From positions 1 through 64,000 of IMG/VR virus record IMGVR_UViG_3300042904_000107: a DNA stretch of 64,000 bases; one strand, 5' to 3'. Source of the stretch: a virus. A program made the translations under genes and the position numbers. Shown one piece after another: positions 23,525-28,005 of this stretch. Below the pieces are notes generated by a model. The model saw only the letters and a program-made list of their open reading frames with translations, searched no databases and was not told the DNA's origin. Position 1 is the first letter of the stretch; every line of letters starts with the position of its first letter.

Positions 23525-23749
23525 TTATGTATGTTTTGCGACAACCCAAATAATCGCGACATCCACAATTGCCTTCAACAAGGCACAGACTATGAGAATG
23601 ACCATTTGTTTTGTCATGAACTACTCCGGAACCCGCGTAGAGGTTTAGCCTCAAGAGATAACGATGGCCTATCGTCTCTCCAACATTATACTCAATCGGT
23701 GTTAACGCCGGCACCATACCGAGTTTTCAATGTTCACGGGCATAAAATT

Positions 23750-25022: not shown

Positions 25023-26498
25023 TCAAGCTTCGCGAACGTTTTCAGCATCCGTTTCAAATACACGGATGTAATCGAAAATGCGCTCTGACCAGCCGTCGAT
25101 GTGGTCCCAGCCGTTCTTATAGCTGATTCCGTTCTTCTCATTGCTCACGTTCACCACGTAGTTGAACTTTCCAAGACGCGGTGCAAGAGCAGGATTTGCT
25201 TTTGTGTCGCAATCCTGTTCATCAGTGAAGACGATAACGCGGTCGAATTCCTGGTGTTTCTGTGTCTTGATGTACTCCATACACTGAACCAGGAAGATAC
25301 CGCCGCCACCGATACCGAACTCATGTGATGCATTATGTATCTTCTCCGCTAATGCAAGTCCGTTCAGGTGGTCAGGAACCAATGCTGTCGCGTGTTTACG
25401 GCTAGCATCGCTGCCTGCCGTAACGTATACCACAGACTCTTCACACAAGTTACGCGCCAACAACGCCAGACCGGCTGCTCCGTCGAGACGCGATACTTCC
25501 GACTTACTTGACACGTTTCCGTAGTTCATGCTGCCCGATGTATCAACTACCAACAATGTTCTACCTGGTAGCTTATCCATACCATCAATAGCCTTCAGCA
25601 TGGCAATCTCAATTGACTTCGATAGACGCGGTGCATACTTCGCAGCCGTCATGAAGTTGAACGGTAGTGCCACTCCTACACCCTTCTCAAGGCGCTCGCG
25701 GATCAACTTCTCGTCCACACCAGCAGATAACATATTGCGAAGGTTCTTCAACAAAGCGAATCCGCCTAGTTTATTCTCGCGGATCAAACGCTCCCAAGTC
25801 TCTTTCTTGTTAGCGCCGGACGATAATGCAACTTCCCAGGTGTCTGGTGTCTTAAGTGTATTGTCCACAAGCTTCTTGAACAAGAGCTCCTGTTCACGGT
25901 CCTGCGGCTTCGCATGTGATAAGAACAACACGTCCCGGAGCTTAATGTCATTATCGCGGTTCCACTTTGCAAGCTGGTATTCATCAAACTTCGTGAACGC
26001 CTTTGCCAGGCCACGCTTGACCGAAGCTGATAATGGCTGCTTCTTATCTTTCCAGTACATGGCAAGGAACTCTGCTAATTCATCAGGGCGCTTGATTAGG
26101 CTGGCAACCCCAACCTCGACAACCGTGCCCACATTTACATCATTCCACTTGTACGGAAAACCAGTCTTCGCCAAGTTACCCTGGGTGTACTTTGCCAACT
26201 CGCGAATCACGTAAAGTGGCGCATGGCGCAACTTCATGAAATCTTTCGCTTCTAGAGCGAGATCCAACACGTCATTCGGATGCACGTTCGGGATGATATC
26301 CGAAATGCGCTTTGCAACTGAGTTACCGCCTTCGTAGAAGGAGTTCTCCCATAGAAGCGTGGTCATCAGCGAACGCTGGAGTTGCTTCTTAGCGTTGACT
26401 GTTTGCGCTTTCGCTCCACCAGCCGTAAAGACCTGAGTTTTCTTTGGTGCAACCTTCTTTACCACCTTCACGGTGGATTTCTTATTCACTTTCGCCAT
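25023..26498 (-). CDS. Ro60/Rsr-like TROVE + vWA RNA-binding protein
   Basis: LRHAP, RPDELAEFLA.Y, FDEYQLAKW.R, LRDVLFLSHAKP, PDTWEV.LS, MIDAS DTSGSM, FTDEQ. Confidence 0.93.
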   Translation of the reverse strand: MAKVNKKSTVKVVKKVAPKKTQVFTAGGAKAQTVNAKKQLQRSLMTTLLWENSFYEGGNSVAKRISDIIPNVHPNDVLDLALEAKDFMKLRHAPLYVIRELAKYTQGNLAKTGFPYKWNDVNVGTVVEVGVASLIKRPDELAEFLAMYWKDKKQPLSASVKRGLAKAFTKFDEYQLAKWNRDNDIKLRDVLFLSHAKPQDREQELLFKKLVDNTLKTPDTWEVALSSGANKKETWERLIRENKLGGFALLKNLRNMLSAGVDEKLIRERLEKGVGVALPFNFMTAAKYAPRLSKSIEIAMLKAIDGMDKLPGRTLLVVDTSGSMNYGNVSSKSEVSRLDGAAGLALLARNLCEESVVYVTAGSDASRKHATALVPDHLNGLALAEKIHNASHEFGIGGGGIFLVQCMEYIKTQKHQEFDRVIVFTDEQDCDTKANPALAPRLGKFNYVVNVSNEKNGISYKNGWDHIDGWSERIFDYIRVFETDAENVREA

Positions 26499-26513: not shown

Positions 26514-26936
26514 CTAGGATTTTAACAACTCTTTGGATATGAAGACCAAAGAAGGATACGATTGCTTCTTACCTCGCCTCCCGTAACGCGAGGCGATATT
26601 GAAGTCAATATAATCATCCTCTTCCGGATGACCATGGTAAATCTTTTGACCATTCATTACACCACCGATGCACGGATAAAGCTGGTTCTTACTCTGTTGT
26701 TTCCAAGAACGAATGTACTTCCAACCTTCGTTGTCGTAATTCTCGTAAACATCCGTGACGGTTTGATTTGAAACGTGGTGAGTTGCTGTGTCGTACTCAC
26801 CTGGAATTTCATTCCGCTGATAGTGGTGTTCTGTTTTCATGTAACGTTCAGAACCCCAGGTCGGTTCGCTGTAACCCTTTGGGTTTGAAAACCGACGTTT
26901 TGCGGGGGGATCCAACTTCAATTCTTTTTGAGCCAT
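26514..26936 (-). CDS. hypothetical protein between Y-like RNAs and Ro60
   Basis: 140-aa ORF. Confidence 0.6.
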   Translation of the reverse strand: MAQKELKLDPPAKRRFSNPKGYSEPTWGSERYMKTEHHYQRNEIPGEYDTATHHVSNQTVTDVYENYDNEGWKYIRSWKQQSKNQLYPCIGGVMNGQKIYHGHPEEDDYIDFNIASRYGRRGKKQSYPSLVFISKELLKS

Positions 26937-26957
26937 AATAAAAATGAACTACTCCGA

Positions 26958-27116
26958 TGGTCCGGGACGCAGGATTCGAACCTGCAACTCTCTCGCCTAA
27001 AGAGAAGTAACCGTTATCTACACCACGTTTCTCCCCAGCCGTCATAAGACGGGGAGGAGGACGGGAACAAACGACAACGGATATTTTTAGCGTTATGCCA
27101 GTTTAACTAGCCCCGG
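26958..27116 (-). ncRNA. tRNA-Y RNA chimera (Y module in anticodon position, CCA end)
   Basis: acceptor CCGGGGC/GTCCCGG-A-CCA, D and T arms, internal TGTTCCCG...CGTGGTGTAG..CGGTTACTT module. Confidence 0.75.
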
Positions 27117-27124
27117 AAATTACA

Positions 27125-27238
27125 GGCGGGAACAGACGACTACAGCTTTTATCCTACTGGATTCGAACCAGCAAAGATAGCTTTTAAGGCTATTGTTTAT
27201 CCAAATTAAACTAAGGAACTGTAATCTTTCACCACGCC
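27125..27238 (-). ncRNA. Y-RNA-like RNA carrying a full tRNA-like domain
   Basis: GGCGTGGTGAAA..stem..TGTTCCCGCC enclosing D arm, ATAGC-CTTAAAA-GCTAT, GCTGG-TTCGAAT-CCAGT. Confidence 0.75.
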
Positions 27239-27465
27239 AAATTGACGTAGGGTTCTTGTGTCCAATTAAGGACAGACGAAAAAGCCGCACTCTGAACGAT
27301 TAGAAGGAACCCTTCTGCGTACGGTGCGGTCTTATACCCTATAACTTCCAAATCATCCGGTAACCACTTAGGAAGATTGCCTGCTAAGAATTTTACCATA
27401 GTCTCTACCGAGACTGGCATTAATCGCAAGCCCTTACCTGGGGTTGGATGAGTCCTGAAGTGCAT
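27229..27465 (-). CDS. hypothetical protein
   Basis: 78-aa ORF with GGAG SD. Confidence 0.55.
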   Translation of the reverse strand: MHFRTHPTPGKGLRLMPVSVETMVKFLAGNLPKWLPDDLEVIGYKTAPYAEGFLLIVQSAAFSSVLNWTQEPYVNLAW

Positions 27466-27476
27466 GAACTACTCCG

Positions 27477-27546
27477 GCCGGGAACAGTCGCAATCCGCTT
27501 TTATTTGGCTTATCGTTAGCTAAGTAACGGACTACTTCACCACGGC
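27477..27546 (-). ncRNA. minimal Y-RNA-like module
   Basis: GCCGTGGTGAA..CCGTTACTTAGCTAA..TGTTCCCGGC. Confidence 0.7.
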
Positions 27547-27791: not shown

Positions 27792-27872
27792 TAAGAGTGG
27801 CGGGAACTATTCGCGGACAGCGCGTTTTAGGAATTAGCTAAGTAACCGTCCACTATCACCACGTCACTCTTA
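27792..27872 (-). ncRNA. minimal Y-RNA-like module
   Basis: GACGTGGTGATA..CGGTTACTTAGCTAA..AGTTCCCGCC with extended closing stem. Confidence 0.7.
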
Positions 27873-27976: not shown

Positions 27977-28005
27977 AGTATACTACGTTTGATTCGGTTT
28001 GTCAA
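27977..28005 (-). promoter_or_regulatory. sigma70-type promoter upstream of the Y-RNA/Ro60 unit
   Basis: TTGACA-17-TATACT. Confidence 0.75.

What the first reader, a model, noticed from the sequence alone, without database searches (positions are those of the whole stretch)
26958..27116. Circularly permuted Y RNA: a CCA-ended tRNA whose anticodon is replaced by a Ro-binding module
The 5'-to-3' order is acceptor 5' strand, D arm, CTAAA, Y 3' strand (CCGTTGTC-GTTTGTTCCCGT), capping hairpin, Y 5' strand (ACGTGGTGTA-GATAACGG-TTACTT), TTTAG, T arm (GCAGG-TTCGAAT-CCTGC), acceptor 3' strand, ACCA. In canonical YrlA the RNA ends lie in the Ro stem and the acceptor is a closed loop; here the topology is reversed. 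This leaves a free CCA that could be aminoacylated or engage EF-Tu, CCA-adding enzyme or RelA while tethered to Ro60.
Basis: partly seen in the sequence, partly recalled or inferred. Interest (0 to 1): 0.85.

Follow-up and report, generated by a model that had tools for sequence, protein, structure and literature searches.

The report
tRNA-ordered, CCA-ended phage Y RNA
A soil phage encodes, just upstream of its Ro60 gene, a 159-160-base RNA built like a complete tRNA with an open CCA-tipped acceptor end and a loop-capped Ro60-docking stem as an extra arm. The same design, which I found in no paper or Rfam family, recurs beside Ro60 genes in about twenty other phage contigs.

Summary
On the minus strand, 27116-26958 reads, in order: acceptor 5' strand, D arm, A-rich linker, Y-stem 3' strand, capping hairpin, Y-stem 5' strand, T arm, acceptor 3' strand, ACCA.

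It is not a one-off or a broken gene. I found 26 further units of the same "tRNA order" in about 20 contigs; most that were checked lie beside a Ro60 gene. A covariance model built from 21 of them, without the window, matches 27116-26958 end to end (88 bits, E 2e-21). Real tRNAs score 44 bits or less.

- **Covariation:** the open acceptor stem and the internally capped Ro stem both covary.
- **Extra pair:** a -1:73 pair that played no part in selecting the units forms in 26 of 27.
- **3' end:** N73-CCA is encoded in 9 of 27.
- **Caps:** in siblings the Ro stem is often closed by a GAAA or UUCG tetraloop.

The CTAAA/TTTAG "anticodon stem" is not conserved; an anticodon-arm-like hairpin remains, and the Ro module is a fifth arm.

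Published YrlA RNAs have closed acceptors. The nearest precedent is M. smegmatis YrlA, which is cut by RNase P and CCA-tailed after transcription. Ro60 binding, processing and charging remain untested. This scan noted the same design before in another phage (e1-5596806).

The parts
27110..27117 (-). Acceptor 5' strand CCGGGGC (27116-27110) plus U-1 (27117), which pairs with A73
   Evidence: 7/7 pairs with 26968-26962. The -1:73 pair forms in 26 of 27 class members against 4 of 27 for -2:74.
27091..27109 (-). U8 A9, D arm (GUUA / AACUGGCA / UAAC) and G26
   Evidence: 4-bp stem; loop carries A14, G18 G19 and A21. Aligned D-arm columns covary in A3.
27081..27090 (-). A-rich single-stranded linker CUAAAAAUAU
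Evidence: A-rich linkers occupy the same place in canonical and tRNA-order relatives.
27061..27080 (-). Ro-stem 3' strand: helix strand CCGUUGUC, G, then UUUGUUCCCGU (internal loop and lower stem)
   Evidence: 8/8 pairs with 27018-27011. The same CG..UGUUCCC motif occurs in 27 canonical phage YrlAs and 22 tRNA-order units.
27029..27060 (-). Capping hairpin closing the end of the Ro stem (32 nt, about 11 bp, UUAU loop)
   Evidence: MFE fold. It is treated as an insertion by model R2. No U-run follows, and the scan found no terminator here.
27011..27028 (-). Ro-stem 5' strand: ACG-U-GG lower stem, GGUGUAG motif (variant of GNCGAAN0-1G), helix strand GAUAACGG
   Evidence: Family consensus GUGGYGNAG. 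The motif is defined in Chen 2014, PMC4201824.
26986..27010 (-). UUAC junction, anticodon-arm-like hairpin UUCUC-UUUAGGC-GAGAG, and 4-nt variable region AGUU
   Evidence: MFE folds. Homologous hairpins followed by AGGUY occur in 8 tRNA-order and many canonical relatives, with compensatory changes at stem positions 4 and 5.
26969..26985 (-). T arm GCAGG-UUCGAAU-CCUGC
   Evidence: 99% of T-stem cells are paired across 22 units.
26958..26968 (-). Acceptor 3' strand GUCCCGG, A73, encoded CCA
   Evidence: N73-CCA is encoded in 9 of 27 units (binomial 2e-10 against 1/64).
25023..26498 (-). Ro60 (TROVE + vWA) gene, 491 aa, the presumed protein partner
   Evidence: Pfam PF05731 4e-17; PHROG 850 6e-33; PDB 9KOP/9L5Y Thermus phage Ro60 3e-17; 7661 homologues at E<=1e-20 among the 8000 candidates scored.
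27125..27238 (-). Neighbouring Y RNA ('RNA1'): same Ro stem with open ends, joined through a 4-bp acceptor remnant to a tRNA cloverleaf in native order
   Evidence: Rfam tRNA 45.9 bits over positions 4-67; R1 38.4 bits; fold.
27477..27546 (-). Minimal Y RNA ('Y-b'): Ro stem plus a small loop
   Evidence: R1 41.3 bits, E 5e-9; helix 8/8.
27799..27865 (-). Minimal Y RNA ('Y-a')
   Evidence: R1 26.3 bits, E 2e-5; helix 8/8.
27977..28005 (-). Sigma-70-like promoter (TTGACA-17-TATACT, 11/12) upstream of the RNA array
   Evidence: Consensus scan only. No terminator-like site was found on this strand between it and Ro60.

Best explanation
27117/27116-26958 (minus strand) encodes a Ro60-partner Y RNA of the YrlA lineage in 'tRNA order'.

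Its body is a full tRNA shape. It has an open 7-8-bp acceptor stem ending in an encoded CCA, a D arm, an anticodon-arm-like hairpin, a short variable region and a T arm. The Ro60-docking stem is an 8-bp helix, an internal loop carrying GGUGUAG, and a GUGG/CCC bulged lower helix. It is inserted between position 26 and the anticodon-like arm, and it is closed at its far end by a hairpin instead of carrying the RNA's termini.

Shown here:
- the anatomy;
- membership of a recurrent, covarying class found beside Ro60 genes;
- the 8th acceptor pair;
- the enrichment of encoded CCA.

Inferred:
- The RNA is co-transcribed with three other Y RNAs, an unknown 140-aa ORF and Ro60 from the promoter at 28005-27977.
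- It is cut out by the host's tRNA-maturation enzymes. RNase P would cut at the 5' side, at +1 or, because of the -1:73 pair, at -1 as in tRNA-His. Exonucleases would trim back to the encoded CCA.
- Phage Ro60 docks on the capped stem.
- The tRNA-shaped half, now with a free CCA end, recruits a tRNA-recognising partner to Ro60.

The form most likely arose from canonical YrlA, or the reverse, by a half-unit phase shift in tandem arrays. Several relatives still carry such head-to-tail arrays.
For: Context:
- Ro60 lies 460 nt downstream on the same strand.
- Three more RNAs with the same stem motif lie upstream.

Homology of both halves to canonical phage YrlA:
- The canonical consensus, from 27 sequences, has 24 of 29 pairs with compensatory changes.
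- Model R1 aligns the 5' strand through the T arm.
- The linker and the 3' strand match canonical ones.

The class:
- 27 units counting the window's, in about 20 contigs.
- A census of T arms in Y-RNA context, without reference to acceptor pairing, gave 41 canonical and 14 tRNA-order. Non-cognate upstream D arms scored 5/7 or less against 7/7 for cognate ones.
- Covariation on 22 units: 94.4% of cells paired against 69.5% in shuffles (0 of 500 reach it) and 40-48% when the partners are slid. All 7 acceptor pairs and all 8 module-helix pairs show double changes.
- A model built without the window scores it 88 bits, E 2e-21, end to end.

Features not used in selecting the units:
- The -1:73 pair forms in 26 of 27 (G:C 15, U:A 10, A:U 1) against 4 of 27 for -2:74.
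- N73-CCA is encoded in 9 of 27.
- GAAA and UUCG tetraloops cap the Ro stem in siblings.

Ro60 linkage of the motif: a motif-only scan of IMG/VR gave 43 contigs, and a Ro60 gene or fragment lies in the fetched stretch of 33.

Precedents:
- M. smegmatis YrlA is cleaved by RNase P and CCA-tailed in vivo, and both halves stay on Rsr (PMC4201824).
- A phage Ro60 binds upstream-encoded Y-like RNAs and host PNPase (PMC12135203).

Independent DNA: the sequence of this RNA is identical in a second soil metagenome.
Against: - There is no transcript, end-mapping, binding or charging datum. No RNA run holds the locus.
- The closest accessible relatives share only about 50% Ro60 identity, so this particular lineage, with its unusually long 32-nt cap, has no orthologue to test. 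The two DNA sources are identical in the RNA.
- Acceptor complementarity was a selection criterion for most units, so its near-100% pairing is partly by construction. The -1:73 pair, the CCA count and the model score are not.
- The Ro motif here is GGUGUAG, not the published GNCGAAN0-1G, and Rfam YrlA scores only 14.4 bits against a gathering score of 69.
- Whether Ro60 tolerates a capped stem end is inferred, not shown.
Confidence: 0.78

Rival explanations
1. It is a tRNA-shaped processing signal rather than a Ro60 ligand in its own right. The fold serves mainly to recruit RNase P and 3' trimming enzymes, so that the upstream Y RNAs are released and the downstream ORF140-Ro60 mRNA gains a defined 5' end. 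This would resemble tRNA punctuation, or the mascRNA-type 3'-end formation cited by Wang 2018.
For: - RNA1 ends only 8 nt upstream of the acceptor.
- The ribosome-binding cassette of the next ORF starts right after ACCA: the 13-mer begins 2 nt, and its GGAG 3 nt, downstream.
- No terminator-like site was found on this strand within the operon.
- In relatives the units abut each other or other Y RNAs with spacers of about 3-10 nt.
Against: A plain tRNA-like hairpin set would do that job. Instead the full Ro stem, with its conserved motif and covarying helix, is kept inside every unit and capped by stable tetraloops. This role can also coexist with Ro60 binding.
Confidence: 0.1
2. It is a real decoding tRNA gene interrupted by an insert that is removed. 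Excising nt 27-110 would leave a 75-nt class I cloverleaf with loop UUUAGGC (anticodon UAG).
For: - ARAGORN with the intron option calls a tRNA over the whole span.
- The remaining parts have normal tRNA spacing, U33, G37 and an encoded CCA.
Against: - From background knowledge, no bacterial or phage mechanism is known that excises an insert at position 26/27.
- The insert is the conserved Ro60-docking stem, found in the same place in canonical-topology relatives, where excision could not yield a tRNA.
- The phage already encodes tRNA-Leu(UAG).
- Type II siblings lack any anticodon loop.
- The Rfam tRNA model does not reach threshold here.
Confidence: 0.04
3. It is a dead remnant: the 3' half of one canonical YrlA and the 5' half of the next, left by deletions in a tandem array, with no function as a unit.
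For: - Tandem Y-RNA arrays are common beside phage Ro60 genes.
- The capping hairpin sits where an inter-gene spacer would lie.
Against: - The two halves are mutually complementary at both helices (8/8 and 7/7, plus -1:73), and an encoded CCA follows.
- The same architecture recurs with compensatory changes in about 20 contigs, often with tetraloop caps only 4 nt long.
- The window scores 88 bits against the independent model.
Confidence: 0.03

Closest known systems
YrlA (Y RNA-like A; Rfam RF02553; Chen et al. 2014, PMC4201824; Wang et al. 2018, bioRxiv 10.1101/312249)
   Same: - Encoded upstream of, and on the same strand as, Ro60/Rsr.
- A bulged stem carries a GNCGAA-like motif.
- The tRNA-like domain has D and T arms and an acceptor-like stem, with the tRNA tertiary-pair nucleotides.
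- Both halves of the window RNA align to canonical phage YrlAs.
   Different: - In published YrlA the RNA ends lie in the Ro stem and the acceptor is a closed hairpin. [quoted passage not shown]
- Here the order is reversed: open acceptor with encoded CCA, capped Ro stem.
- Rfam YrlA scores 14.4 bits against a gathering score of 69.
Processed M. smegmatis YrlA (Chen et al. 2014, section read)
   Same: It ends up with a tRNA-type acceptor: 5' end made by RNase P, 3' CCA, 7-bp stem, still bound to Rsr.
   Different: - That state is reached after transcription, by cutting the acceptor loop and adding CA. It yields two RNA pieces (82 and 65 nt) held together by base pairing.
- Here the topology is written in the gene, the CCA is encoded and the molecule is one chain.
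Thermus phage phiLo Ro60 with Yrl1/Yrl2 (NAR 2025, PMC12135203; PDB 9KOP, 9L5Y)
   Same: - A phage Ro60, the best PDB match of the window's protein (E 3e-17).
- Y-like RNAs are encoded just upstream, and binding is shown experimentally.
   Different: - In the passages I read, Yrl1/2 are described as stem-bulge-stem RNAs with 5'-3' terminal stems.
- The words tRNA-like, CCA and acceptor do not occur in the paper's text.
tRNA-His-type acceptor (8 bp, -1:73 pair, then CCA); from textbook knowledge of bacterial tRNA-His and RNase P
   Same: 26 of 27 class members pair -1 with 73. Five siblings carry the full G-1:C73-CCA set.
   Different: - The window has U-1:A73, not the HisRS identity pair.
- Whether the 5' end is at -1 is unknown.
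Aminoacylatable tRNA mimics: tmRNA and plant-virus tRNA-like structures (as contrasted with YrlA in 10.1101/312249)
   Same: A tRNA-shaped module with a free 3' CCA, attached to a second functional module.
   Different: - There is no mRNA-like reading frame or viral-genome context here.
- The second module is a Ro60-docking stem.
- Charging is not shown.
Circularly permuted tRNA genes of Cyanidioschyzon merolae and one archaeon (Soma 2007 and others, as cited in 10.1101/312249)
   Same: They show that tRNA-shaped RNAs can exist in two gene orders related by circular permutation.
   Different: - Those genes are permuted away from tRNA order and are restored through a circular intermediate.
- Here the gene is already in tRNA order, and it is the Y RNA that is permuted.
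- No splicing motif was examined here.

Membership tests
YrlA-type Y RNA (RF02553; Chen 2014) | Encoded within about 4 kb of a Ro60/TROVE gene, on the same strand | tested here: met
   The RNA ends at 26958. Ro60 starts at 26498 on the same strand.
YrlA-type Y RNA (RF02553; Chen 2014) | Ro-docking motif GNCGAAN0-1G in the 5' strand of a bulged helix | tested here: inconclusive
   The window has GGUGUAG. The phage-family consensus is GUGGYGNAG paired to UUCCC, which includes exact GGCGAAG in relatives. It is a variant, not the published motif.
YrlA-type Y RNA (RF02553; Chen 2014) | tRNA-like domain with T arm, D arm and acceptor-like stem | tested here: met
   U8, A14, G18 G19, U54 U55 C56 and A58 are present.
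YrlA-type Y RNA (RF02553; Chen 2014) | RNA termini in the Ro stem; acceptor closed by a loop; no free CCA | tested here: not met
   The gene order is reversed: open acceptor plus ACCA, Ro stem capped by a hairpin.
YrlA-type Y RNA (RF02553; Chen 2014) | Reaches the Rfam gathering score | tested here: not met
   14.4 bits against 69, on a different span.
YrlA-type Y RNA (RF02553; Chen 2014) | Bound by Ro60/Rsr | not testable with these tools
   Only co-location and motif sharing are available.
tRNA-order Y RNA class (defined here; model R2) | End-to-end match to a covariance model built from other contigs only | tested here: met
   88.0 bits, E 2e-21, model positions 1-129. Real tRNAs score 44 bits or less.
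tRNA-order Y RNA class (defined here; model R2) | Open acceptor of 7 bp plus a -1:73 pair | tested here: met
   7/7 plus U27117:A26961. The class shows 26 of 27.
tRNA-order Y RNA class (defined here; model R2) | Ro stem strands in 3'-then-5' order, closed by a cap | tested here: met
   Helix 8/8. The cap is 32 nt, longer than the usual 4-9 nt.
Transfer RNA (RF00005) | Cloverleaf with canonical spacing, detected by tRNA models | tested here: not met
   There is no Rfam tRNA hit on this span. ARAGORN finds it only when allowed a 79-nt 'intron'. The insert is 84 nt, between positions 26 and 27.
Transfer RNA (RF00005) | Aminoacylation and decoding | not testable with these tools
   The encoded CCA and a 7-nt U33/G37 loop are compatible with it, but they show nothing about charging.

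The most novel reading that the evidence does not exclude
tRNA-order Y RNAs are chargeable. The free, often encoded CCA on an 8-bp acceptor would be aminoacylated, or bound by EF-Tu, the CCA-adding enzyme or a tRNA-end-targeting defence toxin. Five siblings carry the complete G-1:C73-CCA identity set of tRNA-His. Ro60 would then be delivered to, or act as a decoy for, the translation or tRNA-surveillance machinery during infection. A corollary is that this tRNA-plus-Ro-arm form is the ancestral state, from which the closed-acceptor YrlA arose by a half-unit phase shift in tandem arrays.
Probability: 0.15. Interest if true: 0.9.

Novelty: new variant of a known kind. Interest (0 to 1): 0.68.

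Why it matters
The role of the tRNA-like half of bacterial and phage Y RNAs is an open question. Published work stresses that YrlA has no free CCA end and so differs from chargeable mimics such as tmRNA.

A natural, recurrent Y RNA written in tRNA order supplies the missing comparison. It has an 8-bp acceptor and a frequently encoded CCA. Several experiments become direct:

- Is the tRNA-like module a substrate for RNase P, the CCA-adding enzyme, a synthetase or EF-Tu while tethered to Ro60?
- Does Ro60 accept a stem whose end is capped?

The head-to-tail arrays in relatives also give a concrete route by which tRNA, tRNA-order Y RNA and canonical YrlA could interconvert. This bears on the proposed tRNA origin of Y RNAs.

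In phages rich in tRNA and RNA-repair genes, the RNA may also take part in the conflict over host tRNA-targeting defences.

Tried and rejected
Tools and searches that gave nothing:
The contigs of the closest Ro60 relatives (P0002 at 84%, P0003 at 74%, P0005 and P0008 at 60-69% identity) could therefore not be fetched. Scans of IMG/VR with P0002 and P0003 found nothing closer than about 50%.
- Megablast of the locus against GenBank phages: no match.
- Rfam at gathering scores: nothing on this span. At E<=10 there were only chance-level hits, with YrlA at 14.4 bits.
- Sequencing runs: no RNA holder listed. The two DNA holders gave no variation inside the RNA.
- Literature: no paper found that describes a tRNA-order or CCA-ended Y RNA gene. 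The 2020 Annual Review (PMC10870794) is not held. A preprint on a phage Ro60-like protein countering a defence system, mentioned in an earlier scan note, was not found.
- PHROGs and Pfam: no match for the 140-aa and 78-aa ORFs.

Readings considered and dropped:
- CTAAA/TTTAG as the anticodon stem: rejected for this RNA.
- A tRNA-Pro mimic, suggested by C1-G72, A73 and AGG in the loop, with no tRNA-Pro called in the window. It needs a loop register with C37 and a 3-nt variable region, against the family register.
- The insert as an intron; see the rival explanations.
- The 13-mer CGGAGTAGTTCAT after ACCA as an RNA signal. It is a re-used ribosome-binding and start cassette.

Other results:
- My first script's 'PERMUTED' calls at L004, L037 and L067 were artefacts of similar tandem copies.
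- The bacterial genome scan gave at least 120 motif matches, but only one tRNA-order unit among the 80 stretches fetched (L228).

Full report
**What is there**

The window comes from a 97-kb soil virus contig, estimated 53% complete. All 30 ARAGORN-called tRNA genes lie on the minus strand.

On that strand, 27116-26958 reads as follows:
- acceptor 5' strand CCGGGGC, then U8 A9;
- D arm GUUA/AACUGGCA/UAAC, then G26;
- an A-rich linker;
- CCGUUGUC-G-UUUGUUCCCGU;
- a 32-nt GC-rich hairpin;
- ACGUGGUGUA-GAUAACGG, then UUAC;
- a hairpin UUCUC-UUUAGGC-GAGAG, then AGUU;
- T arm GCAGG-UUCGAAU-CCUGC;
- acceptor 3' strand GUCCCGG, then ACCA.

The acceptor strands pair 7/7 and the two 8-nt helix strands pair 8/8. 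The MFE fold is better than all 200 shuffles, z = -3.98. ARAGORN, when allowed an intron, calls exactly this span as a tRNA with a 79-nt insert.

**Context**

- The 491-aa ORF 26498-25023 is a Ro60. It matches TROVE at 4e-17 and PHROG 850 'RNA-binding protein' at 6e-33. Its best solved relative is the Thermus phage phiLo Ro60, 3e-17.
- Between the RNA and Ro60 lies a 140-aa ORF with no family.
- Upstream are three more RNAs with the same bipartite stem motif (GUGGUG..A..G+helix / helix+CG..GUUCCCG): 27865-27799, 27546-27477 and 27238-27125.
- A strong sigma-70-like promoter sits at 28005-27977, and no terminator-like site was found on this strand before Ro60.
- The locus is present, with this RNA unchanged, in a second soil metagenome from another study. 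One of that run's contigs runs through the 3' strand, the cap and the start of the 5' strand.

**What canonical relatives look like**

Ro60 relatives, all 54% identical or less, were fetched from IMG/VR and JGI metagenomes. Upstream of most of them lie one to several Y RNAs.

Twenty-seven with a tRNA-like domain align to this consensus:
- nnnGUGGYG-NA-G plus a 7-8-bp helix;
- (U/A)UACUUCG;
- a hairpin or anticodon-stem strand, then AGGUY;
- T arm;
- a closed acceptor hairpin (7 predicted pairs);
- UA, then D arm;
- an A-rich linker;
- the helix 3' strand, then CG..UGUUCCCnnn.

Of the 29 predicted pairs, 24 show compensatory changes. This is the published YrlA topology: ends in the Ro stem, acceptor closed (PMC4201824 and 10.1101/312249).

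The window RNA contains the same pieces in the order second half then first half. Model R1, built from the canonical set, aligns its 5' strand through the T arm and then runs into unrelated sequence.

**The permuted order is a class, not an accident**

ARAGORN with introns, a structural scanner and direct reading turned up further units with an open acceptor and an internal, capped Ro stem. They are:
- L015/L012 (two units);
- L058 (two);
- L075 (two);
- L070 (two);
- L107 (two);
- L045, L043, L052/L053 and L072.

A motif-only scan of IMG/VR for short-capped stems gave 43 contigs. A Ro60 gene or fragment lies in the fetched stretch of 33 of them, and the scan added L115, L117, L119, L130, L137, L153 (two) and L128. 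Model searches added L136, L146, second units in L115 and L128, and one contig of a Clostridia MAG, L228.

A census that did not look at acceptor pairing first classified T arms in Y-RNA context as 41 canonical and 14 tRNA-order. Cognate upstream acceptor strands scored 7/7, while non-cognate ones never exceeded 5/7.

**Evidence that the fold is selected**

- **Covariation.** On 22 aligned units, 94.4% of cells form standard pairs. Column shuffles give 69.5% (0 of 500 reach the observed value), and sliding the partners gives 40-48%. All 7 acceptor pairs and all 8 Ro-helix pairs show changes on both sides.
- **Selection caveat.** Acceptor complementarity was used to pick most units. Three further features carry more weight because they were not used.
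- **Extra pair.** The nucleotide before the acceptor pairs with N73 in 26 of 27 units (G:C 15, U:A 10, A:U 1). The next position out pairs in only 4 of 27. The stem is therefore 8 bp and ends exactly there.
- **Encoded CCA.** N73-CCA is encoded in 9 of 27 units, against 1/64 expected (2e-10).
- **Caps.** The Ro stem is closed by GAAA, UUCG or UAAC tetraloops or 6-nt loops in most siblings. That is not what an inter-gene spacer looks like.
- **Independent model.** Model R2, built from 21 units without the window, matches 27116-26958 over its whole length at 88.0 bits, E 2e-21. It treats the long cap as an insertion. The next hits are the phage's real tRNAs at 44 bits or less.

Two sub-types exist among the relatives.
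- **Type II** (L119, L130, L153_B, L070_B, L107_B and others). The five nucleotides after N26 pair with five that end exactly 5 nt (6 in L070_B) before the T stem.
- **Type I** (the window, L015_B, L058_B, L070_A, L075_B, L043, L115, L117). A local hairpin UUCNN-7 nt-NNGAG is followed by 4-5 nt and the T stem. Stem positions 4 and 5 covary, and many loops have the NU-NNN-AA form.

The same CUAAA linker in L115 and L075_B has no full partner. The hairpin is also the MFE solution. I therefore read the window RNA as a five-armed molecule: a tRNA with all four arms, plus the Ro module inserted at position 26/27. This is an inference from homology and energy, not a demonstrated structure.

**How it probably works**

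Shown: the anatomy, the class, the Ro60 linkage of the motif, the 8-bp acceptor and the CCA enrichment.

Inferred from established knowledge:
- A 7-8-bp acceptor stacked on a T arm is the RNase P substrate. A paired -1:73 shifts cleavage to -1 in bacterial tRNA-His.
- tRNA precursors with encoded CCA are trimmed back to it by exonucleases.
- M. smegmatis YrlA, the one YrlA with a 7-bp acceptor, is cut by RNase P and CCA-tailed in vivo while bound to Rsr.
- A phage Ro60 binds its upstream Y-like RNAs and forms a complex with host PNPase.

The likeliest scheme follows from these points. The operon transcript is cut at 27117/27116 and trimmed to 26958. This also frees RNA1, which ends 8 nt upstream, and the downstream mRNA. 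Ro60 then docks on the capped stem, and the tRNA-shaped half with a free CCA engages a tRNA-recognising factor. What that factor is, and whether the end is charged, is unknown.

The window has U-1:A73. Five siblings have G-1:C73-CCA, the acceptor identity set of tRNA-His, which gives a sharp test.

**Origin**

In L075, L015, L058, L070, L107, L115, L128 and L153, two units lie close together on one strand. In several of these pairs they abut head to tail. A frame shifted by half a unit reads as a canonical YrlA with a poor (L058, L075) or acceptable (L015) acceptor hairpin. Tandem arrays therefore offer a simple route between the two topologies. I did not test the direction.

**Comparison with what is known**

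- It works like, and is homologous to, YrlA. It fails the family's defining topology and the Rfam threshold, so I file it as a new variant rather than a member.
[quoted passage not shown] It speculates that some YrlAs might be processed to resemble tRNAs more closely.
- No paper I could search describes a gene-encoded tRNA-order form.

**Limits**

- There are no RNA data.
- E-values from the short calibration are rough.
- The count of 'about 20 contigs' includes some near-identical pairs (L012/L015, L052/L053, L119/L130/L228).

Noticed in passing
window 27125-27238 (-): The neighbouring Y RNA has the Ro stem with open ends. It is joined through a 4-bp acceptor remnant to a tRNA cloverleaf in native order (D arm, anticodon arm with loop CUUAAAA, T arm). 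This is the orientation Chen 2014 describes for D. radiodurans Yrn1, not YrlA. One operon thus holds three Y-RNA architectures.
   Followed up: partly
L115 4089-4217, L119 10321-10453(-), L130 5543-5672, L136 8836-8962(-), L228 1429-1555(-): These sibling units carry G-1:C73 followed by an encoded CCA. This is the acceptor identity set of bacterial tRNA-His, which makes histidylation a concrete test.
   Followed up: no
L075 169-440; L015 2617-2879; L058 400-663; L070 30-298: These loci hold head-to-tail pairs of tRNA-order units only 2-5 nt apart. Read half a unit out of phase, they look like canonical YrlAs with weak or unpaired acceptor hairpins. Three such phase-shifted spans were in my 'canonical' alignment A1.
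   Followed up: partly
window 26944-26956, 27464-27476, 23616-23628 (-): There are three exact copies of CGGAGTAGTTCAT, plus five near copies (8 matches against 1.3 expected). It is a re-used Shine-Dalgarno plus start cassette. In the copy after this RNA the ATG is ATT, in frame with the ATG at 26936.
   Followed up: partly
L016 2644-2715; L003 1157-1235; window 26962-27027: ARAGORN calls ordinary tRNAs across the Ro-stem 5' strand, hairpin and T arm of Y RNAs. The string GUGGYG-UA-GAnnnnGG-UAC resembles a tRNA acceptor 5' strand plus U8 A9 and a D region. This may bear on the tRNA origin of the Ro stem.
   Followed up: no
Hairpins after UACUUC in many relatives (e.g. L016, L067, L015_B, L058_B, L070_A, L117): The loops follow the anticodon-loop pattern N-U-NNN-A-A, with differing 'anticodons' (UGU, GUU, UUU, UUC, GAU, UAU). 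The 5 nt that follow match the classic variable loop AGGUC. Each Y RNA may mimic a particular tRNA.
   Followed up: no
window 27162: This is the only difference between the two soil metagenomes over 3.1 kb. T>A on the plus strand equals A59>U in the T loop of the neighbouring Y RNA.
   Followed up: no
window 26514-26936 (-): A 140-aa ORF lies between the RNA array and Ro60 and has no Pfam or PHROG match. I did not check whether it is conserved in other Ro60 loci.
   Followed up: no
window 27029-27060 (-): The unusually long cap contains CCUCCU on one strand and GGGGAG on the other, which are anti-Shine-Dalgarno-like and Shine-Dalgarno-like strings. This may be mere GC-rich pairing.
   Followed up: no
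Genome-contig loci L156-L235: The short-capped stem motif occurs in at least 120 bacterial and archaeal genome contigs (many Bradyrhizobium). Only one of the 80 stretches fetched holds a tRNA-order unit, so the rest are other Y-RNA arrangements or chance matches.
   Followed up: partly
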